Below are positions 35,978 to 62,393 of a stretch of DNA of 64,000 bases, piece by piece. The DNA is from a virus (Duplodnaviria > Heunggongvirae > Uroviricota > Caudoviricetes), in the IMG/VR virus record IMGVR_UViG_3300033077_000655, one strand, 5' to 3'. Both the position numbers and the translations under genes were made by a program. The notes beneath the pieces were generated by a model. It searched no databases. It had not been told where the DNA came from and worked only from the letters and a program-made list of their open reading frames with translations. The first letter of the stretch is position 1. Each line of letters opens with the position of its first letter.

Positions 35978-37282
35978 ATGGAATTTTTTATAATATTTCT
36001 TGCAATTCCAATAGGACTCTTGGTAGGAATGTTGCCAGCAATAGGAGACAGCGTGATGATGATCATGCTATATCCATTTGTAGCACATTTAGAATTCAAC
36101 ACTTTGATTGCATTTTATGCTACTATGATCACGTGTGGGCAGTTTAGCTCAAGTGTAGTTGGGCTGTGGCTTGGCCTTGCTGGTGATGTCACAGCCATTC
36201 CAGTTCTTAAAGAACGACGAGAAATCATCAACTCCAACTTGTTATGGACTGCATTGTATAGGACCGGGCAGGCTAGTGCTATTGCCACGTTAGCATCTGT
36301 AGCAATGCTGAGCTTGTTAATTCAGTTTGGTACTGAATTTCGATATTTTCTTCGCACAGATGTATTTTTTGTCATTATAGTTATGGTAGCAGTTTCTGCA
36401 CTGGCTTGGTCTGGAAATAAATTCAAAACAAATTTACTATTGTGCTTGATTGGTCTAGTAGGTAGCTTGATTGGATACAATCAGTTTTTAGGTAAATCTA
36501 TCCTGACCATGGGGGTAGAATTTTTGGTCAATGGCTTGCCTTTCCTTCCTATACTGTTAGGCATGTATGCCATCCCTATGTTGTTTGCTGCCATGGCAGA
36601 TATGTCCAATGCAAGTCCAGTGGATCACACCAAAATTGATACTAGTCAACCTATACAATTAGTACCTGCAGCAGTGATGGCCCGAGGTACTATCATTGGA
36701 TTTTTAACAGGGCTATTGCCGTTGATTGGAGTAACAGTAAGTGCTGCTACTGCACATTTTGTTGAATCCAAAATCAAATCTAGCACAGCACTGACAAGAA
36801 TAAGTTCAGCAGAAGCAGCTGACAATGCGGCTGTGATATCTGTGCTGTTTCCATTATTGGTATTTGGTGTGGCAATACAACCAAGTGAGGCCATAGTGGT
36901 CAATTTGCTGACTGATCGCGGATGGTCAATTAACCAACTCAAAGCAGACACTTATTTGAAAATGGGCGTGGGTATATCAGTTGGAGTGGTGGCATGTCTT
37001 GCATTTTGTGTGCATTATATTGTTCAGATGATCAACTGGTTTACCAGATATTACCAATATGTATTTTATTTTATTTTTGCATTGATAGCATGTGATGTTT
37101 GGTATTTGGGCATGGACTCAGACCGATCAGTCTTTTACATGATTGTTTTTGCAATTTCCACGGTGGTGGGATATTTTTTGTACAAGAAAAAAATTGATCC
37201 AGTTCCAATGATTTTTGTATGGATGCTGGGTCCGTATTTTTGGCCGACTGCATATAGACTTTTACAGCTATATGTTTTATAA
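35978..37282 (+). CDS. polytopic membrane protein, TctA-family-like transporter subunit
   Basis: At least 10 hydrophobic segments; N-terminal GLLVGMLPAIGDS resembles the TctA GxLPGxG signature. Confidence 0.5.
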   Translation: MEFFIIFLAIPIGLLVGMLPAIGDSVMMIMLYPFVAHLEFNTLIAFYATMITCGQFSSSVVGLWLGLAGDVTAIPVLKERREIINSNLLWTALYRTGQASAIATLASVAMLSLLIQFGTEFRYFLRTDVFFVIIVMVAVSALAWSGNKFKTNLLLCLIGLVGSLIGYNQFLGKSILTMGVEFLVNGLPFLPILLGMYAIPMLFAAMADMSNASPVDHTKIDTSQPIQLVPAAVMARGTIIGFLTGLLPLIGVTVSAATAHFVESKIKSSTALTRISSAEAADNAAVISVLFPLLVFGVAIQPSEAIVVNLLTDRGWSINQLKADTYLKMGVGISVGVVACLAFCVHYIVQMINWFTRYYQYVFYFIFALIACDVWYLGMDSDRSVFYMIVFAISTVVGYFLYKKKIDPVPMIFVWMLGPYFWPTAYRLLQLYVL

Positions 37283-41984: not shown

Positions 41985-42743
41985 ATGTCCGTATTCTTAG
42001 ACTCAGTGATAGAGTTCTACATCACCAATCAATGCAACCTAGCCTGCACCAACTGCAATAGGTTCAATGATCACGATTTCCGTGGTCACTACTATTGGGA
42101 GGATTCTGCACCTGCTGTCACAGCATGGAGTCAACGTATCAATGCATCAATGATAGTGATCATTGGCGGTGAACCCAGCTTGCATCCTGGGTTAGAAACT
42201 TGGGTGATGAATCTTCGCAGATTATGGCCGGACACCACAATCATGATTCAGAGTAATGGCACTAATGCAAAAATAGCAAAAGATCTCGACTCTTACAGCA
42301 AGTACCATGTGGGATGGGGTATAAGTGTACATCGTCCTGAGATGCGACCTGCATTAGAACGACAATGGGGCAACCTTATTGACAACACAGAATTTACCCC
42401 GGCTGCAATTATTCCGCAAGGTGATGCATTTGTTGTTCATCAGAGCAATCCGATAACTGCATTCAAAGCCTGCACCATGCGGCATAGTCACACTGTATTC
42501 AAAGGAAAACTGTACAAGTGTCCTGTGATGGCTGTGCTGCCAGAGTTCCGCACACAGCAATCAGTAATCATGGATACCAGGCAAGAACAGTTGTTGGCTC
42601 AGTATCAACCATTGAGTGCGGACTGTACTGAGCAACAGTTGACGGACTTTGTAGACACAAGAAATCAACCCATTGATCAATGTGAATTTTGCCCTGGTGA
42701 ATTTGATTTCCAGCCAGTGGTATTTCACAAAAGAAAAAAATAA
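41985..42743 (+). CDS. radical SAM protein (single Cx3Cx2C cluster)
   Basis: FYITNQCNLACTNCNRF...IIGGEPSLHPGL. Confidence 0.5.
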   Translation: MSVFLDSVIEFYITNQCNLACTNCNRFNDHDFRGHYYWEDSAPAVTAWSQRINASMIVIIGGEPSLHPGLETWVMNLRRLWPDTTIMIQSNGTNAKIAKDLDSYSKYHVGWGISVHRPEMRPALERQWGNLIDNTEFTPAAIIPQGDAFVVHQSNPITAFKACTMRHSHTVFKGKLYKCPVMAVLPEFRTQQSVIMDTRQEQLLAQYQPLSADCTEQQLTDFVDTRNQPIDQCEFCPGEFDFQPVVFHKRKK

Positions 42744-43658: not shown

Positions 43659-44060
43659 ATGAGTATATCGAATGAAAAGGGAGAAATAGGAGAAGCGGCA
43701 TTTGTGCTTGCTTCTGCTAAACAAGGATACTGGACTGGTAAAATGCCACAAGGGTGTCCTTATGATTATGTGTTAGATAGACATGATGGAAAACTTTTAA
43801 GAGTTCAAGTCAAATTTAGATCGTTAGAAAGTAACGGAGTAGTTACTATTAAGCTAACGCAAAACACATTCACAAACAGAGTTTCTTACAACAAAAGCAA
43901 CATTGATTATATAGCAGTTTATGTAAATGAATTAGATAAAGTATATCTTATACCTATTACAGAAATATGTGATGTGAAAGAAGTTAAACTTCGTTGTATA
44001 GAATCTATAAAAAGAAAAGATAATAACTCTCGTATAATAACAGAATACGCAGAGTGGTAA
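43659..44060 (+). CDS. small PD-(D/E)XK-like nuclease candidate
   Basis: GEIGE...PYDYVLD...LRVQVK resembles an E...PD...(E/Q)xK arrangement. Weak. Confidence 0.3.
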   Translation: MSISNEKGEIGEAAFVLASAKQGYWTGKMPQGCPYDYVLDRHDGKLLRVQVKFRSLESNGVVTIKLTQNTFTNRVSYNKSNIDYIAVYVNELDKVYLIPITEICDVKEVKLRCIESIKRKDNNSRIITEYAEW

Positions 44061-44063
44061 TTT

Positions 44064-44135
44064 GGCCGTGTAACTCAGAGGCAGAGTAATCCCTTGATAA
44101 GGGATAAGTCGACATTTCGAAATTGTCCATGGCTA
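44064..44135 (+). tRNA. tRNA-Ile (GAT)
   Basis: Anticodon arm ATCCC-TTGATAA-GGGAT; atypical T arm GACA-TTTCGAAAT-TGTC (9-nt loop, or a T·T closing pair). Confidence 0.6.
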
Positions 44136-46474: not shown

Positions 46475-46503
46475 TTGACAACTACCGCAAAAGGTTGTAT
46501 AAT
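46475..46503 (+). promoter_or_regulatory. perfect-consensus sigma70 promoter TTGACA-N17-TATAAT
   Basis: TTGACA at 46475-46480 and TATAAT at 46498-46503. Confidence 0.6.
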
Positions 46504-46617
46504 TAACACATAAACAAAAAGGAACTATATGAAGCCAACAGCTAAACTATAGTGTCAATCATAGATCCCGTATATGGTCTTGGGTTGGCACATTAAAGAC
46601 AATTTGATATGCACAAC

Positions 46618-46689
46618 CCATGCTAAACTTTAGTGGTGAAGTAACCGGCTCTTAACCGGAGGAACAGAGTTCGAGTCTCTGAGCATGGA
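46618..46689 (+). tRNA. tRNA-Lys (CTT)
   Basis: Acceptor CCATGCT/AGCATGG; anticodon loop CTCTTAA; T arm CAGAG-TTCGAGT-CTCTG. Confidence 0.65.
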
Positions 46690-46696
46690 CCATATA

Positions 46697-46768
46697 CGGG
46701 GTATAATTCAATGGTTAGAATAGCCGGCTTTTAACCGGTCTATCACGGTTCGAGTCCGTGTGCCCCGA
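46697..46768 (+). tRNA. tRNA-Lys (TTT)
   Basis: Acceptor CGGGGTA/TGCCCCG; anticodon arm GCCGG-CTTTTAA-CCGGT; T arm CACGG-TTCGAGT-CCGTG. Confidence 0.75.
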
Positions 46769-46927
46769 CCATATAAAAACATACTGTGAGGCGCTAGTTG
46801 CATGGCGAATTTAAACAGAATGCAACCCGTCATGTAATAAGTGTACATAAAGATGATGAGCAGTGTGTTTTTATATGGTAAAACAGGAGTAATTACCCTG
46901 CACCATAATCGGGAGTCATGACCCGAT

Positions 46928-47027
46928 GAACTCGTAGTGATGGAATGGTCAAACATAGGCCTCTTATCGGGCCGGTGGAGTTAAATGCCCACTTGCAGGT
47001 TTCGAAATCCTGCCTACAATGAGTTCG
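46928..47027 (+). ncRNA. 100-nt tRNA-like RNA of unclear identity
   Basis: GAACTCG...TGAGTTC-G-CCA acceptor-like pairing; T-arm-like GCAGG-TTTCGAAAT-CCTGC; internal hairpins; no canonical anticodon arm found. Confidence 0.35.
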
Positions 47028-47110
47028 CCATATAAAAACACATTTTTAACTAGGCATGCCCCTGCAAGGGTTTAACAGCAGTTTTGAGTGTGTTTCTATA
47101 TGGTTTTATG

Positions 47111-47181
47111 TTGGCCATGGTGTAATGGAAGCACCCGACTCTGTGAAAGTCGTAGCATGGGATCGTTACCCATTGGTCAAC
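47111..47181 (+). tRNA. tRNA-His (GTG)
   Basis: G-1 at 47110 and discriminator C; anticodon arm CGACT-CTGTGAA-AGTCG; T arm ATGGG-ATCGTTA-CCCAT (A at position 54). Confidence 0.7.
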
Positions 47182-47364
47182 CCAAATTAAAGATTGTTTA
47201 TAAAACGCAAAGCTAGATTCACGTTGGTAAAATAACGCAACTGAGCTTCGGCCGTAAACACATCATACACGATGATGCAGCAAACACCGATATCGCTTAG
47301 GCTTAGATGAAAATTCAAGCCCTGTGGTGTTAGGTTTTGATAGCGTCTCACACAAGTATTTATT

Positions 47365-47436
47365 GGTCATGTGGCGTAGATGGATGCGCACCGCCCTCAT
47401 AAGGCGAGGAGGTTGGATCGATACCAACCATGACCA
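47365..47436 (+). tRNA. tRNA-Met/Ile2 (CAT)
   Basis: Perfect acceptor GGTCATG/CATGACC; anticodon loop CTCATAA; T arm GTTGG-ATCGATA-CCAAC. Confidence 0.7.
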
Positions 47437-47598: not shown

Positions 47599-47668
47599 CC
47601 AACGCAGACTCTTGGTTCAATGGTAGAACGGTATTACTATAAATAGTATTCTACCATTGGAGAATAAG

Positions 47669-48055
47669 ATGCCAAAACCAAAAATCCATCCTCGCATATA
47701 TAATTGTATTCATTGTGGAACAGAGAATGAATGGACCACAAAAAAGAATAATAAGTTTTGTAACCATTCTTGTCAGCAAAATTATAGATGGATAAATGAA
47801 ACAAAACCATTGATAGAATCTGGGAAAAAAAATACAAACAATTTTAGAGCCTTACTAAAATATGTCAAAGAACGAGATGGCTATAAATGTAAAATTTGTG
47901 ATTTAACCAATTGGCAAGGAAACCCTATATCATTGGATTTAGATCACATAGATGGAAATAATAAAAACAATTTTCCAAGTAACCTACGATTGTTATGTCC
48001 TAACTGTCATAGGCAAACTCCTACTTGGGGTAATAAAACTCGTTCTGGTCTATAG
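47669..48055 (+). CDS. HNH homing endonuclease
   Basis: LDLDHIDGNNKNN...LRLLCPNCH. Start set at the ATG at 47669, which has a GGAG RBS. Confidence 0.7.
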   Translation: MPKPKIHPRIYNCIHCGTENEWTTKKNNKFCNHSCQQNYRWINETKPLIESGKKNTNNFRALLKYVKERDGYKCKICDLTNWQGNPISLDLDHIDGNNKNNFPSNLRLLCPNCHRQTPTWGNKTRSGL

Positions 48056-48150: not shown

Positions 48151-48358
48151 TGCAGCATGTTAAGAAATTAACATACGCTCATTAAAAATTTATTGATATA
48201 AAGACTGGAAACAGTCCAAGTCTTTATATCCACATGCACAAATGCCTTGCGCAGGCAGATGTAGCGGATTACAGCTCTGGTCAATCCGGGGTAGGCAGGT
48301 TCAATTCCTGCAAGTGTATGTGGATATAGAGATTTTGATAATTCAAAATAAAAAATTT

Positions 48359-48688: not shown

Positions 48689-48692
48689 CCAG

Positions 48693-48767
48693 CTGGCGTT
48701 AGTATAATGGATAATACAGGGGATTTCTACTCCCTAAATGGCAGTTCGATTCCGGCCAGTTGCACCA
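48693..48767 (+). pseudogene. degenerate copy of tRNA-Arg (TCT): 5' two-thirds intact, 3' acceptor does not pair
   Basis: Identical to the 50320 tRNA through the anticodon arm (GGGGA-TTTCTAC-TCCCT), then diverges (AATGGCAGTTCGATTCCGGCCAGTTGCACCA). Confidence 0.5.
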
Positions 48768-48783
48768 CTCATAAATAAATTAC

Positions 48784-50310
48784 ATGTACAATGCTATACT
48801 TTTTACAGATCGAACCGACAACATATTTGGATCGGTCACTATTGGGGCATTTAAATGTGCTCATGTTTTAAGAAAACACGGATACTCGTGTTTGGTAGTC
48901 AATCATTATTCAGAATATACACATGAGGATCTGGTTGAACTTGTTGATTTAGCAGTGTCAGATCAAACTATCCTGATTGGGTTTAGTTCTACATATTTAA
49001 AAAATACTCAAATACAAAAACAAGTAGGAGAACCCACACCACCATATCCTGACATTGTTGATGACTCGGTATTCCCGCAAGGCAAAGATTTTGAAAATAA
49101 ATTTTTTGAATATTTGCATAAAACAAATAGCAAACTAAAAATCATAGTAGGTGGTACAAGGGTAACACAACAATATTCTAACAGGAATATTGACTATGCA
49201 TTTATTGGATATAGTGAAATATCTATAGTTAATCTAGCCAATCATCTGACCACCGGCGAACGCTTAGATAAAAGCAGTAAAAATATATACGGTGTGGTCA
49301 TCGTTGATGATCGATTTGCTCCTGCATATAATTTTAATAGTGAAGATATGAGTTGGGAAGCCACAGATATAGTGAATCATCACAGTCTTCCTATAGAAAT
49401 AGGTCGTGGATGTATTTTTAAATGCAAGTTTTGTGCCTTTCCGATGAATGGAAAACAAAATTTAGATTTTGTTAAAACTGCTGATATACTGGAAGCTGAG
49501 TTAAAAAACAACTACGATAGGTATGGTGTTCGACATTATCACATTGTGGATGATACCTTCAATGACCATATTGAAAAATTAGAATCTATACGTCGTGTGG
49601 TTGATCGTTTGAATTTTCAACCGGTATTTTGGGGGTATCACAGATTAGATCTACTGTGTACTAGACCAGAAACAGTAAAAATATTGCACGATATTGGTGT
49701 TAGATCAATGTATTTTGGCATTGAGACTTTGAATGAAAAAGCAGGAAAAATAATTGGTAAAGGATACAACAAATCACGTCAGATTGACATGATTCAAACC
49801 ATTCGCAATCAATATTCTGACATCTCAATGCACGGAAGTTTTATTCTAGGATTGCCCGAGGAGAGTATTGACAGCGTGTGGGAAACTCATAATAGTTTAA
49901 TAAGTCAACAGATTCCATTGCATAGTTGGATGTCAAATGGATTGCACATGTATAACAACGATAAATCTACATACGTCAGTGAGTTTGAAAAAAACTTTAC
50001 CAAATATGGGTATGTTGATATTGGCACTGATAATGAATCTAATTCAAGAAATTGGAAGAACAATTTTACTAACAGTGAAGAAGTCAGAGTATTGGCTGCA
50101 AAATTTACCAACGAATCTCGACGGTTACCAAATTTTATGCTGCCCGGGCATGATGCATTGGCTTTGTCAACATATGGCGTTGATTTTGATATATCACGAT
50201 TTACCCCATATCATCAATTTGATTTCCATGCTGTAGAGCACACTGTTAAACCAAATTTTGATAAAGAATATAAAAAACAATTGTTGAATCTTATTCAACA
50301 TTCTAAATAA
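48784..50310 (+). CDS. B12-binding-domain radical SAM protein (paralog 1)
   Basis: GRGCIFKCKFCAF (Cx3Cx2C); N-terminal Rossmann-like domain; paralog of 50508..52154. Confidence 0.7.
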   Translation: MYNAILFTDRTDNIFGSVTIGAFKCAHVLRKHGYSCLVVNHYSEYTHEDLVELVDLAVSDQTILIGFSSTYLKNTQIQKQVGEPTPPYPDIVDDSVFPQGKDFENKFFEYLHKTNSKLKIIVGGTRVTQQYSNRNIDYAFIGYSEISIVNLANHLTTGERLDKSSKNIYGVVIVDDRFAPAYNFNSEDMSWEATDIVNHHSLPIEIGRGCIFKCKFCAFPMNGKQNLDFVKTADILEAELKNNYDRYGVRHYHIVDDTFNDHIEKLESIRRVVDRLNFQPVFWGYHRLDLLCTRPETVKILHDIGVRSMYFGIETLNEKAGKIIGKGYNKSRQIDMIQTIRNQYSDISMHGSFILGLPEESIDSVWETHNSLISQQIPLHSWMSNGLHMYNNDKSTYVSEFEKNFTKYGYVDIGTDNESNSRNWKNNFTNSEEVRVLAAKFTNESRRLPNFMLPGHDALALSTYGVDFDISRFTPYHQFDFHAVEHTVKPNFDKEYKKQLLNLIQHSK

Positions 50311-50319
50311 CCCAAACAT

Positions 50320-50391
50320 CTGGCGTTAGTATAATGGATAATACAGGGGATTTCTACTCCCTAGATAGCAGTTCGATTCTGTTACGCCGGA
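50320..50391 (+). tRNA. tRNA-Arg (TCT)
   Basis: Acceptor CTGGCGT/ACGCCGG; D arm GTAT-AATGGAT-AATAC; anticodon arm GGGGA-TTTCTAC-TCCCT; T arm AGCAG-TTCGATT-CTGTT. Confidence 0.65.
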
Positions 50392-50401
50392 CCAGCCAAA
50401 T

Positions 50402-50490
50402 GCCAGCGAGACTTGGAAGTCAGAGAGGTCTTATACGCCTTTTAGCCCCAGATTAGGGTTCTTGAGAGAGTTCGATCCTCTCCGCTGGTA
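50402..50490 (+). tRNA. class-II-length tRNA of uncertain identity (possible anticodon TAT)
   Basis: Acceptor GCCAGCG/CGCTGGT; T arm GAGAG-TTCGATC-CTCTC; variable-arm hairpin AGCCCcagattaGGGTT; best anticodon arm GAGGT-CTTATAC-GCCTT (two G·U pairs). Confidence 0.45.
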
Positions 50491-50507
50491 CCACACATAA
50501 GTAATGA

Positions 50508-52154
50508 ATGTTTAATAATAAAAAACCTAATGTTATTTTAATTACAGATTCTACTGATATAATTTCTTTAAACATTCTACTTGGGCCATTTAAAGTAGCA
50601 CATGTTCTTAAAGAGCATGGAATAGAAGTTGCAATGATACATCATGCATCAGCATTGTCATTTAAAGAAATAACTACTATTCTCAAAGAGATAATATCTG
50701 ATCAAACTTTGTTGGTGGGTATAAACAATTTCTATTATTCTTCCATTGAACTTAATAAAGATAATGGCAGTGATGGCATGACATTAAAAGAAATTGACCC
50801 AGGTAGTTTTTTACCTCATGGAAAAAGCAAAAATATTGAGTTAAAAACACTGATTAAATCATTGAATCCCAAAACCAAAATAGTGCTTGGCGGTGTGACT
50901 GCATTAGATACCAAGTACAACAAAGATTTTGATTATCTTGTGTTAGGATACGCCGAAACTGCAATATTGGATCTGGTGGATCATCTTAGGTCATCGTCTC
51001 CTATAGAAAAAAGTTATAAAAGTATCTATGGGCCAATAGTGCTGACAGACAAGGTAGCGTCTAGATATGATTTTTCATCATCCCATATGCGGTATGATCC
51101 AGACTGGTCAATACTGCCTGGATCAACATTTCATCTAGAATTAGGTCGTGGATGCATTTTTAAATGTGCATTTTGCGCTTATCCTTTCAATGGAAAAAAG
51201 AAAACTGATTATATTAGATCAAAAGAATCTATTCAGGCTGAGATGATAGACAATTACAACAGATTTGGTGTCACACGTTATTTGATGGGTGACGATACGT
51301 TTAACGACAACGTTGATAAATGCCGAATGATTTATGAAATATCCCAAGAACTTCCATTTAAATTAGAGTACTGGGCGTATTTGAGATTAGACCTGCTGAC
51401 GGCACATCCTGAAACAATAGATTATTTGTTTGACAGCGGCTTAAAAGCGGCGTTTTTTGGTATTGAAACTCTGAACCCCAAGACTGCATCTATAATAGGC
51501 AAAGGTGGCAATCGAGATAAAATGTTTAAAACTATAGCTGATATTAAATCTAAGTGGGGTGATTTAGTTTCGTTAGCCGCTGGGTTTATTTATGGATTAC
51601 CCGAAGAAGATTTAGATAGCCTACAACGCACAACTGATTTTTTGATCAGTGACCAAAACAAACTAGATCAGTGGCTAGTTGAAGCTTTAAACATACGCCC
51701 TACCGTTGATTATGATAATAGCTTTATCAGCGATATAGAAAAAAATTATGAAAAATATGGTTATAGTAAAATAGACAACCACACTCGTCCAGGTGGGTCC
51801 AATATAGGCACTGATCGCCGACGACATGCTATAGTCTGGAAGAATAAACACACAGACTATTACTCTGTTTTAAACATTACCGAAGCACTGAATGCTAGAA
51901 TAAAACCACACTTGAAAATTCCCGGCGATGCGGCTCTCCTGTTGAGTGGGCTAGGCATAGATTTAGACCAACTATTAAACAAACAACATGACCAAGTGCC
52001 GTGGAATAAACTAGATCAACTACATTTAAAAAAAGTTTTTGAGTATAAAAAACTCTTAGCTAAGAATTTAAATTTTGATATTAATCTCATTGACATGAAA
52101 ATTTTGCATCACAAAACGTACGGTAATTATCTCAAAGCAATGTTTGAAAAATAA
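50508..52154 (+). CDS. B12-binding-domain radical SAM protein (paralog 2)
   Basis: GRGCIFKCAFCAY; domain order as in 48784..50310. Confidence 0.7.
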   Translation: MFNNKKPNVILITDSTDIISLNILLGPFKVAHVLKEHGIEVAMIHHASALSFKEITTILKEIISDQTLLVGINNFYYSSIELNKDNGSDGMTLKEIDPGSFLPHGKSKNIELKTLIKSLNPKTKIVLGGVTALDTKYNKDFDYLVLGYAETAILDLVDHLRSSSPIEKSYKSIYGPIVLTDKVASRYDFSSSHMRYDPDWSILPGSTFHLELGRGCIFKCAFCAYPFNGKKKTDYIRSKESIQAEMIDNYNRFGVTRYLMGDDTFNDNVDKCRMIYEISQELPFKLEYWAYLRLDLLTAHPETIDYLFDSGLKAAFFGIETLNPKTASIIGKGGNRDKMFKTIADIKSKWGDLVSLAAGFIYGLPEEDLDSLQRTTDFLISDQNKLDQWLVEALNIRPTVDYDNSFISDIEKNYEKYGYSKIDNHTRPGGSNIGTDRRRHAIVWKNKHTDYYSVLNITEALNARIKPHLKIPGDAALLLSGLGIDLDQLLNKQHDQVPWNKLDQLHLKKVFEYKKLLAKNLNFDINLIDMKILHHKTYGNYLKAMFEK

Positions 52155-52259: not shown

Positions 52260-52742
52260 ATGAAAAAAATGGACATGACTCAGGTTAAAGAATACATTAC
52301 TGCTCAAAGTCCAGAAACTGCGGTATATCTGGGCTGCGACAGCGAACGAGTAAAGATCAATGGCGTATGGTACGCAGACTATGCTCTGGCTGTGGTTGTA
52401 CACATTGATAGCTGCCATGGTTGCAAAATCTTTGGTGAGGTACAACGTGAACGTGACTGGGATCAACGCAGCGACAAACCTGCCATGAGACTGATGAACG
52501 AAGTATACAAGGTTTCCGAACTGTTCCAAAAGATGAGTGATGTGCTGGAAGATCGTCTTGTGGAAGTACACTTGGACATCAACCCTGATCAGATGCACAA
52601 GAGCTCAGTGGTAGTAAATCAAGCCATTGGTTACATCAAAGGCACTTGCAACGTGATACCGATGGTCAAGCCTCGAGCCTTTGCTGCCAGCTATGCTGCT
52701 GACAGACTGGATTGGGTGTTGAGCAATCGCCGAGCAGCTTAA
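52260..52742 (+). CDS. hypothetical protein
   Basis: ORF with an RBS; 160 aa; no clear motif. Confidence 0.4.
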   Translation: MKKMDMTQVKEYITAQSPETAVYLGCDSERVKINGVWYADYALAVVVHIDSCHGCKIFGEVQRERDWDQRSDKPAMRLMNEVYKVSELFQKMSDVLEDRLVEVHLDINPDQMHKSSVVVNQAIGYIKGTCNVIPMVKPRAFAASYAADRLDWVLSNRRAA

Positions 52743-55480: not shown

Positions 55481-55585
55481 ATGCCAAGTCCACGTAGAGC
55501 AAGTCAAATCCTCAAAGGTAAAAAACCACCAAAACCCAAGACCATGAAAGCCATGGCCAAACGTGTGGTACGAAAGAAAAAGTAA
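55481..55585 (+). CDS. small basic protein (34 aa)
   Basis: RBS aaggagatagtt-ATG; sequence MPSPRRASQILKGKKPPKPKTMKAMAKRVVRKKK; its stop overlaps the next start (TAATG). Confidence 0.3.
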   Translation: MPSPRRASQILKGKKPPKPKTMKAMAKRVVRKKK

Positions 55586-56814
55586 TGAGCAAACTCCTAT
55601 TAGAAATGGGTGATCACTGCGTAAGTGATTTTATCAAGAATGATAGTGAAGGCCTAGGCCGTAAAAAATACAGTCTAGACCTATACCAAGATGATCGGTT
55701 TGGCGCTGTTCGTCTTCACGGTGTTGCACCAGCAGATACCATGTGGGGTCAATATTGGTATCGCAGCGGTATCAACGCCAGCATGACTAAAGAATTGCAA
55801 GGCATTGTTGCAGAAGTAACTTCAAGGGTAAAGACCAAAGCCGGTGATATTTGGCTGGACATTGCATGCAATGACGGTACACTATTAAAAAGTGTGCCCG
55901 ATAACATGATCAAAATTGGTATTGATCCAGCCGACGACAGCTTCCGTAGTGAAAGCACCCGGGTTGCGCATGAAGTTGTTCAAGAATATTTCAGCTATGA
56001 TGCCTGGCAGAAAACAGGGTATGGGCATGCCAAAGCCAAGATCATTACTTGCATTGCAATGTTCTATGACTTAGATGATCCAGTTCCATTCATACAGGAT
56101 TTGTACCGTGTGCTGGATGACAATGGAACGTTGGTATTACAGATGAGCCATACCCCATTGATGGTGAAGCAGCTGGCATTTGACAATATCTGCCACGAAC
56201 ACGTTTACTACTATGATCTCAAGAGTATCACTAGACTATTTGCTGAAAATGGATTCAGGGTAGTTGATTGCAGTCTCAATGACACCAACGGTGGCAGCTT
56301 CAGAGTATATCTTCAGAAGGATGTGGCAGAAGTTTCTAGCTTTGCCACAGCACCCTTGCGTGATGTATGCAACTTTAGAGTCAATAGCATTCTTGCATAT
56401 GAAAGAGTAGAGAACGATATCACTGATCCCAAAACATGGAAATTGTTCGGCGATCGACTTGTTGTGCTAAAGGAACAAGTTGTTTCTTTTGTTCATCAGG
56501 CTGTGAAACAAGGAAAAACAGTTTATGGTTATGGAGCAAGCACCAAGGGCAATACACTGCTGCAATACTTTGGGCTGGACCATAATTATATCACTGCTAT
56601 TGCAGAACGCAGCCCTTACAAATTTGGCATGAAGACCATTGGTACCAACATTCCAATCATCAGTGAAGAAGAAATGCGTGTGGCCAAGCCAGACTACATG
56701 TTGGTATTGCCTTGGCACTTTATCAACGAATTTGAACAGCGTGAACAAGATTACTTGAAATCTGGTGGTACATTCATTGTTCCTTGTCCTGCATTTAGAT
56801 TGGTCACTGCATAG
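55585..56814 (+). CDS. SAM-dependent C-methyltransferase (NDP-hexose C-methyltransferase, TylCIII-like)
   Basis: WLDIACNDGTLL (motif I), IAMFYDLDDP, and a C-terminal YGYGASTKGNTLLQYF block typical of the C-methyltransferase C-terminal domain. Confidence 0.6.
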   Translation: MSKLLLEMGDHCVSDFIKNDSEGLGRKKYSLDLYQDDRFGAVRLHGVAPADTMWGQYWYRSGINASMTKELQGIVAEVTSRVKTKAGDIWLDIACNDGTLLKSVPDNMIKIGIDPADDSFRSESTRVAHEVVQEYFSYDAWQKTGYGHAKAKIITCIAMFYDLDDPVPFIQDLYRVLDDNGTLVLQMSHTPLMVKQLAFDNICHEHVYYYDLKSITRLFAENGFRVVDCSLNDTNGGSFRVYLQKDVAEVSSFATAPLRDVCNFRVNSILAYERVENDITDPKTWKLFGDRLVVLKEQVVSFVHQAVKQGKTVYGYGASTKGNTLLQYFGLDHNYITAIAERSPYKFGMKTIGTNIPIISEEEMRVAKPDYMLVLPWHFINEFEQREQDYLKSGGTFIVPCPAFRLVTA

Positions 56815-61988: not shown

Positions 61989-62085
61989 ACTTCCTATCTA
62001 TGGTGTGTGTTCAGATTATATAGAAACTATATTGTCTAAATAAATATATGAATAGTCGTAATCCCTTCAAAACAAAGGAATCCAA

Positions 62086-62366
62086 GACTCGGGGGCAGTG
62101 CCCGAATGGTCCACCAGAAGCATAATCGATTGGCTCAGAGCCAGTTGAGACATAAGAAACATGATTGTGCTTTTGATGGGCCATACACAGGATCGATTGG
62201 GTTAGATAGTGGCGACGGCGACTCGGTAGGCGATGACCGTTAATCAAGCGAAACCTATAAATGCCAACGACAGCGTTTATTCCTTAGCTGCCTAAACTCA
62301 GCTTAGGGTAGTTATACCTCGTAACAGAAAATAACAGAAGCCCGCTTCGGCGGGCTTTCTTTTGAC
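62086..62366 (+). ncRNA. ssrA: candidate tmRNA (ssrA)-like RNA with tag reading frame ANDSVYSLAA-stop; architecture unresolved
   Basis: Sits in a 380-bp non-coding gap. GCC AAC GAC AGC GTT TAT TCC TTA GCT GCC TAA at 62263-62295, preceded by CTATAAAT. Upstream ...GGTCCACCA at 62112-62120. Ends in a strong terminator. Confidence 0.5.
62338..62364 (+). terminator. intrinsic terminator
   Basis: AAGCCCGC-TTCG-GCGGGCTT followed by TCTTTTG. Confidence 0.8.
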
Positions 62367-62393
62367 TGTTATTTTTGATCACTATATACTAGC

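What the first reader, a model, noticed from the sequence alone, without database searches (positions are those of the whole stretch)
46928..47027. 100-nt tRNA-like RNA with a TTTCGAAAT T-loop
It has an acceptor-like helix (GAACTCG/TGAGTTC, discriminator G, CCA) and a T-arm GCAGG-TTTCGAAAT-CCTGC, enclosing about 60 nt with several hairpins but no clear anticodon arm. It is too short for a group I intron and too long for a class-II tRNA. The same 9-nt TTTCGAAAT loop occurs in the Ile-GAT tRNA at 44064, which suggests a phage-specific T-loop variant.
Basis: seen in the sequence. Interest (0 to 1): 0.5.

Follow-up and report, generated by a model that had tools for sequence, protein, structure and literature searches.

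The report
Conserved non-decoding tRNA-like phage RNA
Inside the tRNA gene array of an uncultured freshwater jumbo phage lies a conserved, roughly 145-base RNA gene that folds like a tRNA but has no anticodon and an interrupted acceptor stem, and that carries two conserved hairpins in front; it is a new family of tRNA mimic whose job is unknown.

Summary
Positions 46928-47030 (+) contain the helix, T arm and CCA described. ARAGORN and Rfam do not call it as tRNA, tRNA-Sec or tmRNA.

It is not a chance fold or a decaying pseudogene. About 48 distinct homologues occur in tRNA arrays of related uncultured, mostly freshwater jumbo phages; no phage in the GenBank phage collection has it. In 33 aligned sequences, 98% of cells pair and 23 of 33 base pairs show compensatory changes. 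The tRNA 15-48 tertiary pair also covaries (A-U 26, G-C 6).

The unit is larger than reported:
- Two leader hairpins (46884-46900 and 46908-46927) have conserved loops AGUAAUUAC and AGUCAUGA.
- The second hairpin abuts a cloverleaf whose closing stem is 6 bp, then an invariant AAU bulge, then 4 bp.
- The anticodon-position hairpin has a 3-8 nt loop of variable sequence.
- Only about a third of the relatives encode CCA, against more than 95% of true tRNAs in the same contigs.

It is therefore a non-decoding tRNA mimic, probably not an amino-acid acceptor. The closest known kinds are T4 RNAC/RNAD and bacterial YrlA, but it is a member of neither. Its function is inferred only. The "phage-specific T-loop" idea is not supported.

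The parts
46769..46879 (+). Upstream flanking long hairpin. It starts at the CCA of tRNA-Lys-UUU with CCATATAAAAACA and ends with TGTTTTTATATGG.
   Evidence: The fold gives an 18-20 bp stem. The motif occurs only here and at 47028-47103 in the 64 kb. In relatives the two ends covary while the insert cannot be aligned.
46884..46900 (+). Leader hairpin L1: stem CAGG/CCTG, loop AGTAATTAC.
   Evidence: The stem covaries at pairs 3-5 in 27 distinct leaders (CAGG/CCTG, AAGG/CCTT, CTGG/CCAG, GAAGG/CCTTC). The loop is conserved, including in loci found without using it.
46901..46907 (+). Single-stranded linker with the conserved sequence CCAUA.
   Evidence: CCA is nearly invariant in alignments A1 and A4. 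It is also present in the second leader type.
46908..46927 (+). Leader hairpin L2: stem ATCGGG/CCCGAT, loop AGTCATGA. It abuts the next helix with no spacer.
   Evidence: Four of its five pairs show compensatory changes (A-U 16, U-A 9, C-G 3; C-G 22, G-C 10).
46928..46933 (+). Outer closing helix P1a, 5' strand (GAACTC). It pairs with 47021-47026.
   Evidence: Six base pairs, four with compensatory changes, 100% of cells paired.
46934..46937 (+). Inner closing helix P1b, 5' strand (GTAG). It pairs with 47014-47017.
   Evidence: Three of four pairs have compensatory changes (TAG/CTA, CGG/CCG, TGG/CCA, TGT/ACA, TGA/TCA).
46940..46956 (+). D-arm-like hairpin. The stem is weak in this copy (ATG/CAT). 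The loop holds the AATGG motif.
   Evidence: In the family the D stem is 4 bp, and three of its pairs show compensatory changes. The two G residues of the loop are conserved. A46945 is the 15-48 partner of T46994.
46958..46973 (+). Hairpin in the anticodon position: GGCC(T) CTTATC (G)GGCC, with a 6- or 8-nt loop.
   Evidence: The stem covaries in all five pairs. The loop is 3-8 nt with variable sequence across the family. ARAGORN assigns contradictory anticodons to relatives (Ile-tat, Gln-ctg, '???').
46974..46993 (+). Variable-arm hairpin, present only in the long-arm subfamily.
   Evidence: Fold. Relatives show GUGG/CCAC against GAGG/CCUC. The arm is absent from the ~82-nt subfamily.
46995..47013 (+). 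T arm: GCAGG, TTTCGAAAT, CCTGC.
   Evidence: Five base pairs, four with compensatory changes. The loop is the canonical 7 nt in most relatives.
47014..47017 (+). P1b, 3' strand (CTAC).
47018..47020 (+). AAU bulge on the 3' strand of the closing stem, within the conserved sequence CAAUG.
   Evidence: C, A and G are invariant and the other A and the U nearly invariant in 33 sequences. The bulge is also present in the loci, although there it was part of the search pattern.
47021..47026 (+). P1a, 3' strand (GAGTTC).
47027..47030 (+). G plus CCA. The CCA is also the first three bases of the downstream hairpin motif CCATATAAAAACA.
   Evidence: CCA follows the discriminator-like base in only about 12 of 36 variants found through the leader, and in 4 of 12 found through the 3' part.
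47028..47103 (+). Downstream flanking long hairpin (CCATATAAAAACACA ... TGTGTTTCTATATGG). It is followed by tRNA-His at 47111.

Best explanation
What it is (about 0.9 confidence): a gene for a structured non-coding RNA of about 145 nt (46884-47030, + strand). It lies in the same orientation as the 36 tRNA genes and is probably co-transcribed with them. Two leader hairpins carry conserved loops (AGUAAUUAC and AGUCAUGA). The second hairpin stacks directly on the closing stem of a true tRNA fold, which has D and T arms, the elbow and the 15-48 pair. That fold has no anticodon loop, and its acceptor stem is replaced by 6 bp, an invariant AAU bulge and 4 bp.

How it most likely works (inferred, not shown): it acts as a tRNA mimic and scaffold, not as a decoder or an amino-acid acceptor. 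The flanking long hairpins and the tRNA fold would let host tRNA- and rRNA-processing nucleases cut the unit out of the polycistronic transcript and would make it nuclease-resistant. The tRNA elbow would dock on a machine that recognises tRNA shape. The conserved hairpin loops and the AAU bulge would bind a specific phage or host partner. In this way the RNA would tether or titrate that partner, as bacterial Y RNAs (YrlA) do with Ro60.
For: Conservation:
- A covariance model built from the family scores members at 65-142 bits and genuine tRNAs at 35 bits or less. Most loci hold one copy; L225 holds two.
- The leader is 88-96% identical between phages whose flanking hairpin inserts are only 26-49% identical.

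Structure:
- 98.2% of cells pair, and 23 of 33 pairs have compensatory changes. None of 500 shuffles reached this, and slid controls gave 33-50% pairing.
- The L1 stem covaries.
- The Levitt pair covaries: A-U 26, G-C 6.

Not a decoder or acceptor:
- The loop at the anticodon position is 3-8 nt and variable.
- ARAGORN gives contradictory anticodons for relatives.
- CCA is encoded in about one third of units, against more than 95% of real tRNAs in the same contigs.

A modular interior with a constant frame:
- There are short, variable-arm and double-elbow versions. All share the same leader, closing stem, bulge and final T arm.
- Two paralogous units lie in tandem in L225.

Precedent: YrlA RNAs are tRNA mimics that were supported by the same Levitt-pair argument (PMC4201824).
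Against: - There is no expression or end-mapping data, so transcription and processing are inferred from position and strand only.
- No partner protein was identified. No Ro60-like gene was seen among the roughly 30 window ORFs scanned.
- The apparent invariance of the leader loops is partly a result of how the first homologues were found, since those loops were in the search pattern. A search that did not use the leader found variants (CUUAAUUAC, and a second leader type).
- The alignment used for the pair counts was fitted to the model.
- A purely cis-acting role would also explain the conservation.
Confidence: 0.45

Rival explanations
1. It is a cis-acting processing (punctuation) element. 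The tRNA-like fold and the flanking long hairpins exist only to recruit RNase P, RNase III or RNase E, so that the long tRNA-array transcript is cut at this point. The released pieces have no function of their own. This would resemble mitochondrial t-elements or the tRNA-like mascRNA that sets the 3' end of MALAT1.
For: - The unit sits between tRNA-Lys-UUU and tRNA-His in conserved synteny.
- It is always bracketed by long hairpins that start at the preceding 3' end.
- In L044/L201 a copy of the leader precedes an ordinary tRNA-Leu.
Against: - The other 36 tRNAs of the array are spaced only 1-10 nt apart in many places and need no such element.
- A mere cutting signal would not need invariant loops, an invariant bulge and a maintained 15-48 pair.
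Confidence: 0.2
2. It is a decoy or sponge for a host factor that recognises tRNA shape, such as a tRNA-targeting defence nuclease or a tRNA-modifying or tRNA-repair enzyme. It would protect the phage's own tRNAs or soak up the factor.
For: - The elbow and tertiary pair are maintained while the anticodon loop is free to vary.
- Some variants have two elbows.
- It lies immediately after the two tRNA-Lys genes in many relatives. From my own knowledge, tRNA-Lys is a frequent target of anticodon nucleases.
Against: - Known anticodon nucleases read the anticodon loop, which is not conserved here.
- This idea does not explain the conserved leader hairpins.
- No defence or counter-defence gene was recognised nearby.
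Confidence: 0.15
3. It is a DNA-level element. On this view the hairpins are really DNA palindromes (GTAATTAC, GTCATGAC; CTGCAG or CGGCCG in the second leader type). They would be bound by a dimeric protein or used by the homing endonucleases scattered through the array.
For: - The loops are self-complementary through their centres in all leader types.
- HNH and PD-(D/E)XK endonuclease genes lie in the array.
Against: - Stems change by compensatory substitutions, with G-U pairs on one strand only (G-U 4 of 33 in L2, several in the closing stem). This fits RNA and not duplex-DNA recognition.
- The tRNA-specific 15-48 covariation has no meaning at the DNA level.
Confidence: 0.08
4. It is a working tRNA with unusual geometry, for example selenocysteine-like, a suppressor or a frameshifting tRNA.
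For: - The window copy has G plus CCA and a long variable arm.
- In L172 ARAGORN reads a 7-nt loop with anticodon UAU.
- A short relative just reaches the Rfam tRNA threshold, 29.8 against 29 bits.
Against: - Loop length and sequence are not conserved.
- Rfam gives no tRNA, tRNA-Sec or tmRNA match for the window copy at E <= 10.
- The acceptor stem is interrupted by a bulge.
- CCA is missing in about two thirds of units although co-resident tRNAs encode it.
Confidence: 0.02
5. It is a decaying tRNA pseudogene with no function.
For: Other degenerate tRNA copies exist in the window, such as 48692-48764.
Against: Compensatory changes occur in six of the seven helices and in one tertiary pair, across about 48 distinct sequences from divergent phages. 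The neighbouring spacer sequence is unalignable.
Confidence: 0.02

Closest known systems
Phage T4 small stable RNAs RNAC (species 1, 139 nt) and RNAD (species 2, 119 nt)
   Same: They are encoded inside the phage tRNA gene cluster on the tRNA strand. RNAC has a canonical T arm (CCGGG UUCGAAU CCCGG) next to a closing helix and has no anticodon. Their function is still unknown (PMC3014915; PMC9697503).
   Different: There is no detectable homology: the family model finds nothing in the T4 locus at E <= 1. The T4 RNAs lack the two-hairpin leader, the full D/T cloverleaf, the AAU-bulged stem and the flanking CCATATAAAAACA hairpins.
Bacterial and phage Y RNAs of the YrlA type (tRNA-mimicking partners of Ro60/Rsr)
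   Same: They are non-coding RNAs with a genuine tRNA-like D/T module joined to a second, protein-binding module. Compensatory G15:C48 / A15:U48 changes were reported for them too. A related Y RNA has a 6-nt 'anticodon' loop (PMC4201824). The inner module of the double-elbow variants here is likewise closed by a loop at its acceptor end.
   Different: Rfam gives no Y RNA or YrlA match. No Ro60-like gene was seen among the ORFs scanned. Here the RNA ends lie at the acceptor side and not in a Ro-binding stem. The conserved motifs also differ: AGUNAUNAC loops and CAAUG here, against GNCGAAN0-1G there.
tRNA-like domain of tmRNA
   Same: It is a tRNA mimic without an anticodon, and a tmRNA is encoded by this same phage.
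   Different: tmRNA is a separate gene at 62007-62386. The unit has a full D arm, no mRNA-like part, no G3.U70 (A3-U70 in 31 of 33) and no conserved CCA.
tRNA-Sec and other long-armed or unusual-geometry tRNAs
   Same: The window copy is about 100 nt, with a long variable arm, an extended acceptor side and G73-CCA.
   Different: There is no UCA or any other conserved anticodon. The closing stem is 6 + 4 bp with a bulge, not 8/5. Rfam's tRNA-Sec model gives no match. Most relatives lack the variable arm.
'tRNA-OTHER' (119 nt) annotated in the KVP40-like Vibrio phage 1.081.O
   Same: It is an over-long tRNA-like gene in a phage tRNA array, with extra sequence in the anticodon region and flanks that pair to extend the acceptor stem.
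   Different: It is not homologous by the family model; the best hit in that locus is 24 bits, on tRNA-His. It has a normal 7-bp acceptor stem and no leader hairpins.

Membership tests
tRNA (Rfam RF00005) | A score at or above the curated threshold of the tRNA covariance model, or detection by ARAGORN. | tested here: not met
   ARAGORN does not report the window copy. Rfam does not report it at the gathering score or at E <= 10. A short relative scores 29.8 bits against a threshold of 29 only when a 181-nt stretch is searched on its own.
tRNA (Rfam RF00005) | A 7-bp acceptor stem directly continuous with the T stem. | tested here: not met
   The stem is 6 bp, an AAU bulge and 4 bp, conserved and covarying.
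tRNA (Rfam RF00005) | A 7-nt anticodon loop with a conserved anticodon within the gene family. | tested here: not met
   The loops are 3-8 nt with unrelated sequences. ARAGORN's calls on relatives are Ile-tat, Gln-ctg and '???'.
tRNA (Rfam RF00005) | D/T elbow and tertiary 15-48 pair. | tested here: met
   The two G residues of the D loop and the UUCRA of the T loop are conserved. The 15-48 pair is A-U in 26, G-C in 6 and other in 1.
tRNA (Rfam RF00005) | An encoded 3' CCA, as in the other tRNAs of these phages. | tested here: not met
   It is met in the window copy but not in the family. About one third of units have it, against more than 95% of co-resident tRNAs.
tRNA-Sec (Rfam RF01852) | UCA anticodon, 8/5 (13-bp) acceptor/T helix, and a model match. 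| tested here: not met
   No match at E <= 10, no UCA loop and a bulged 6 + 4 stem.
tmRNA tRNA-like domain | G3.U70 acceptor, no D stem, joined to a tag-encoding domain, and a model match. | tested here: not met
   No match at this position. The third pair is A-U in 31 of 33. A D stem is present. The phage's tmRNA is elsewhere, at 62007-62386.
YrlA / bacterial Y RNA | Encoded next to a Ro60 (Rsr) gene, with a Ro-binding stem formed by the RNA ends. | tested here: not met
   Pfam and PHROGs scans of about 30 window ORFs, 18 of them in the array at 40-62 kb, gave no Ro60-type hit. The RNA ends lie in the acceptor-like stem. The rest of the genome could not be examined.
YrlA / bacterial Y RNA | A match to an Rfam Y RNA model. 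| tested here: not met
   No match in the window region at E <= 10, and none at the gathering score in the loci holding the long variants.
T4 RNAC/RNAD | Homology in sequence and structure to the T4 genes. | tested here: not met
   Family model R1 finds nothing in the T4 tRNA region at E <= 1.
T4 RNAC/RNAD | Accumulates as a small stable RNA processed from the tRNA-cluster transcript. | not testable with these tools
   No transcript data are available for this uncultured phage. Only position and strand agree.

The most novel reading that the evidence does not exclude
The unit is the RNA subunit of a previously unknown phage ribonucleoprotein. The AGUNAUNAC-loop hairpins, which also occur in neighbouring modules of related phages, would bind a dedicated protein. 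The coaxially attached tRNA fold would deliver that protein to a tRNA-elbow-recognising machine such as the ribosome, RNase P or an exoribonuclease. It would be a phage counterpart of the Ro60-Y RNA tether, evolved independently inside tRNA arrays.
Probability: 0.2. Interest if true: 0.75.

Novelty: new variant of a known kind. Interest (0 to 1): 0.55.

Why it matters
Large phages carry tRNA arrays whose contents are usually read simply as lists of tRNAs. This result shows that one clade of uncultured jumbo phages also maintains, under clear purifying selection, a tRNA-shaped RNA that cannot decode. That RNA is fused to conserved hairpins that look like recognition sites.

The role of T4's RNAC and RNAD has been open for about 50 years. 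This family offers a second, independently evolved and much better-sampled example of a tRNA-cluster small RNA. Its defined structure, with invariant loops, a bulge and an elbow, can be mutated and used as bait.

It also matters for annotation. tRNA finders either miss this gene or give it contradictory anticodons.

Tried and rejected
- Rfam at gathering and at permissive thresholds gave no tRNA, tRNA-Sec, tmRNA, Y RNA, ribozyme or intron match for the window copy.
- Phage-collection BLAST with the array or the unit, in near and distant modes, found no homologue.
- Pseudogene of a neighbouring tRNA: rejected, because alignment scores are low. The model's best tRNA cross-hits are to tRNA-Arg-UCU at about 34 bits. 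This suggests a remote origin but not a copy.
- A short ORF starting at the ATG in the L2 loop: rejected, because reading frame and length are not conserved between relatives (read).
- A sigma-70 promoter or intrinsic terminator in 46500-47400: none found.
- A long-range helix between the upstream TGTTTTTATATGG and the downstream CCATATAAAAACA that would enclose the unit: rejected in favour of two local hairpins. In L003, L005, L133, L139 and L149 each motif matches its local partner better.
- The bare 14-mer GGAGTAATTACCCT was too unspecific as a search pattern; most of its 120 hits were chance. About a dozen hits of the gapped pattern are also chance (L165, L177, L183, L188, L189 and others).
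- An all-against-all scan for further covarying column pairs was too noisy once G-U was allowed. Only the 15-48 pair stood out.
- L044/L201, where the leader is detached from the body, could not be resolved.
- Ro60-like or RtcB-like neighbours: none found.

Full report
CONTEXT

The window comes from a jumbo myovirus-like phage. Its family-B DNA polymerase is 42-49% identical to those of Sinorhizobium phage Phosso, Agrobacterium phage Atu_ph07 and the Rak2-like phages. No phage in the GenBank phage collection searched matches the array or the unit at the DNA level. Between about 42.7 and 55.4 kb, all on the + strand, lie 35 tRNA genes found by ARAGORN and one more found only by Rfam. A further tRNA-Met lies at 32.9 kb, and a two-piece tmRNA of the beta-proteobacterial type lies at 62.0 kb.

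CHECKING THE OBSERVATION

The bases described are all there:
- GAACTCG at 46928-46934 and TGAGTTC at 47020-47026.
- G at 47027 and CCA at 47028-47030.
- T arm GCAGG / TTTCGAAAT / CCTGC at 46995-47013.

The 9-mer recurs in tRNA-Ile-GAT at 44115-44123. Neither ARAGORN nor Rfam detects anything here, either at gathering scores or at E <= 10 on a 361-nt stretch. Taken alone, the 103-nt sequence folds only slightly better than shuffles (z = -2.45). A single-sequence argument would therefore be weak.

HOMOLOGUES

- An exact search with the T-arm 19-mer found five related viral contigs. All have the same upstream sequence.
- A gapped pattern taken from that upstream sequence found 29 viral, 62 metagenomic and 3 MAG loci, mostly freshwater. 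About a dozen of these are chance hits.
- That search fixed the leader sequence, so I repeated it with a pattern from the 3' part only. This gave 19 further loci with variant leaders.
- In total there are about 48 distinct sequences.
- A covariance model built from 33 of them scores family members at 65-142 bits and genuine tRNAs at 35 bits or less. Most loci hold one copy; L225 holds two in tandem.

STRUCTURE

RNAalifold predicts 29 pairs, 18 of them with compensatory changes. I used a structure that also includes the D stem and a model-fitted alignment, which favours the structure somewhat. On that basis:
- 98.2% of cells pair.
- 23 of 33 pairs change on both sides.
- No shuffle of 500 reaches the observed values.
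- Sliding the partner columns by 1-3 positions drops pairing to 33-50%.

The anatomy in window coordinates is as follows.
- Leader hairpin L1, 46884-46900. The stem covaries at its outer pairs and the loop is AGUAAUUAC.
- A CCAUA linker.
- Leader hairpin L2, 46908-46927. The stem covaries strongly and the loop is AGUCAUGA.
- With no spacer after L2, a 6-bp helix, 46928-46933 with 47021-47026.
- A 3-nt AAU bulge on the 3' strand (47018-47020).
- A 4-bp helix, GTAG 46934-46937 with CTAC 47014-47017.
- Two linker bases, then a D arm (46940-56).
- A hairpin at the anticodon position (46958-73).
- A variable-arm hairpin (46974-93).
- The T arm (46995-47013).

The tRNA tertiary 15-48 pair covaries: A-U in 26 sequences, G-C in 6 and other in 1. 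The core is therefore a real tRNA fold, not merely a cloverleaf drawing.

WHY IT IS NOT A tRNA

- The loop at the anticodon position is 3-8 nt long and unrelated in sequence between members.
- ARAGORN, when it calls a relative at all, gives Ile-tat, Gln-ctg or an undefined anticodon.
- The acceptor stem is interrupted.
- More than 95% of the real tRNAs on the same contigs encode CCA, including 35 of 36 in this window. The unit has CCA after its discriminator-like base in only about 12 of 36 leader-selected variants and 4 of 12 variants selected through the 3' part.
- In the window copy the CCA doubles as the start of the downstream hairpin motif CCATATAAAAACA.
- It is not a copy of a neighbouring tRNA.

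VARIANTS

There are three body types:
- a short type of about 82 nt;
- a type with a variable arm of about 100 nt, which includes the window copy;
- a type of about 135 nt in which the anticodon-position hairpin is replaced by a second T arm, a 7-bp helix closed by a small loop, and a second D arm.

Short and variable-arm types can sit in tandem in one genome (L225).

There are two leader types:
- the type seen in the window;
- a type in which the hairpin abutting the closing stem carries the AGUAAUUAC loop and is preceded by a perfect palindrome, ATGYTATC-TGCA-GRTARCAT.

The constant frame is therefore a hairpin with an A-GU-NAUN-AC loop stacked on the 6 + 4 bp bulged stem, plus a T arm and elbow. 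The interior only needs to be tRNA-shaped.

SURROUNDINGS

- The unit is bracketed by two long hairpins, 46769-46879 and 47028-47103. These are the only two elements of this kind in the 64 kb.
- In relatives their ends covary locally while their inserts are unalignable.
- The whole 345-nt stretch is very strongly structured (z = -7.3).
- The leader is 88-96% identical between phages in which those inserts are only 26-49% identical.
- The order tRNA-Lys-CUU, tRNA-Lys-UUU, unit, tRNA-His is shared by many relatives.
- No sigma-70 promoter or intrinsic terminator is predicted nearby.
- Protein genes within the array encode radical SAM enzymes, HNH and PD-(D/E)XK endonucleases and an RNase H-like DUF458 protein. 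The last of these is conserved near the array in nine related loci. No Ro60-like or RtcB-like protein was seen.

INTERPRETATION

Shown:
- It is a conserved, structured, tRNA-shaped RNA gene with a conserved two-hairpin leader.
- It lacks the features needed for decoding.
- As a family it lacks an encoded CCA.

Inferred:
- It is transcribed with the tRNAs and released by host processing nucleases.
- It acts as a tRNA mimic or scaffold whose conserved loops and bulge bind a partner.

A purely cis-acting processing role, a decoy role and a DNA-level role remain possible and are ranked among the rival explanations. A working tRNA and a dead pseudogene are effectively excluded.

COMPARISON WITH KNOWN SYSTEMS

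- T4 RNAC/RNAD are the closest in genomic setting, and their function is still unknown. They are not homologous by the model.
- YrlA-type Y RNAs are the closest in logic: a tRNA-like module with Levitt-pair covariation joined to a protein-binding module. None of their defining features other than the tRNA-like module was met.
- A 119-nt 'tRNA-OTHER' in a KVP40-like Vibrio phage shows that over-long tRNA-like genes with extended closing stems occur in other phage arrays. It is unrelated.

I therefore rate this as a new variant of a known kind, namely tRNA-mimicking small RNAs. It is absent from Rfam 15 and from phages in the GenBank phage collection.

Noticed in passing
window 46769-46879 and 47028-47103: Two long hairpin elements start exactly at the CCA of the preceding gene (CCATATAAAAACA) and end in TGTTT(T/C)TATATGG. 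They are the only two in the window. Relatives have several per array, with covarying ends and unalignable inserts. They could be processing stems or small mobile elements.
   Followed up: partly
window 50402-50493: ARAGORN reports a 92-nt 'tRNA-Ile(tat)' with a long variable arm and CCA. It is conserved at similar length in L005, L067, L124, L128, L133 and L149. This is an unusual class-II-like tRNA that deserves its own look.
   Followed up: no
window 48692-48764: A tRNA found only by Rfam (31.8 bits) is a near-copy of tRNA-Arg-UCU (50320-50394). It has a different acceptor end and no CCA, so it is probably a degenerate paralogue.
   Followed up: no
window 48234-48320: ARAGORN reports an 87-nt 'tRNA-Cys(aca)' without CCA. 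Rfam does not call it, so it is doubtful.
   Followed up: no
window 62007-62386: A two-piece (circularly permuted) tmRNA of the beta-proteobacterial type, with tag ANDSVYSLAA. It hints at a beta-proteobacterial host.
   Followed up: no
window 41985-42743, 48784-50310, 50508-52154: Three radical SAM genes, one with a B12-binding domain, are interleaved with the tRNA genes. A C-methyltransferase lies at 55585-56814.
   Followed up: no
window 52260-52742: A 160-aa RNase H-like protein (Pfam PF04308, formerly DUF458) is conserved at 63-98% identity close to the tRNA array in at least nine related loci. It is a candidate RNA-processing partner.
   Followed up: partly
window 43659-44060 and 47657-48055: PD-(D/E)XK and HNH endonuclease genes lie inside the array. 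They are probably homing endonucleases, like segB in the T4 tRNA cluster.
   Followed up: no
window 35978-37282: A TctA-family tricarboxylate transporter subunit homologue (E = 1.5e-39) is encoded by the phage.
   Followed up: no
L124 5780-5885 (-) and L067 6760-6840 (-): Further 80-110-nt modules lie between the CCATATAAAAACA-type hairpins. They contain hairpins with loops GUCAUUA, AGUCAUAC and CUAAUUAC, which resemble the leader loops. The loop motif may mark a wider set of small RNAs.
   Followed up: no
L044 8790-9020 (-) and L201 1540-1760: A copy of the leader is detached from the usual body. It is preceded by a sequence with two T arms and followed, after 37 nt, by an ordinary tRNA-Leu-UAG. 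This arrangement was not resolved.
   Followed up: partly
L129 1213-1297: A match to the Rfam tRNA-Sec model just above threshold (48.6 against 47 bits) in a related phage contig.
   Followed up: no
L229 14901-15019 and 15266-15386 (Vibrio phage 1.081.O): Two tRNA genes of about 120 nt, annotated tRNA-OTHER and tRNA-Asn, have roughly 45-nt insertions in the anticodon region. The first is flanked by a 13-bp leader-trailer helix.
   Followed up: no
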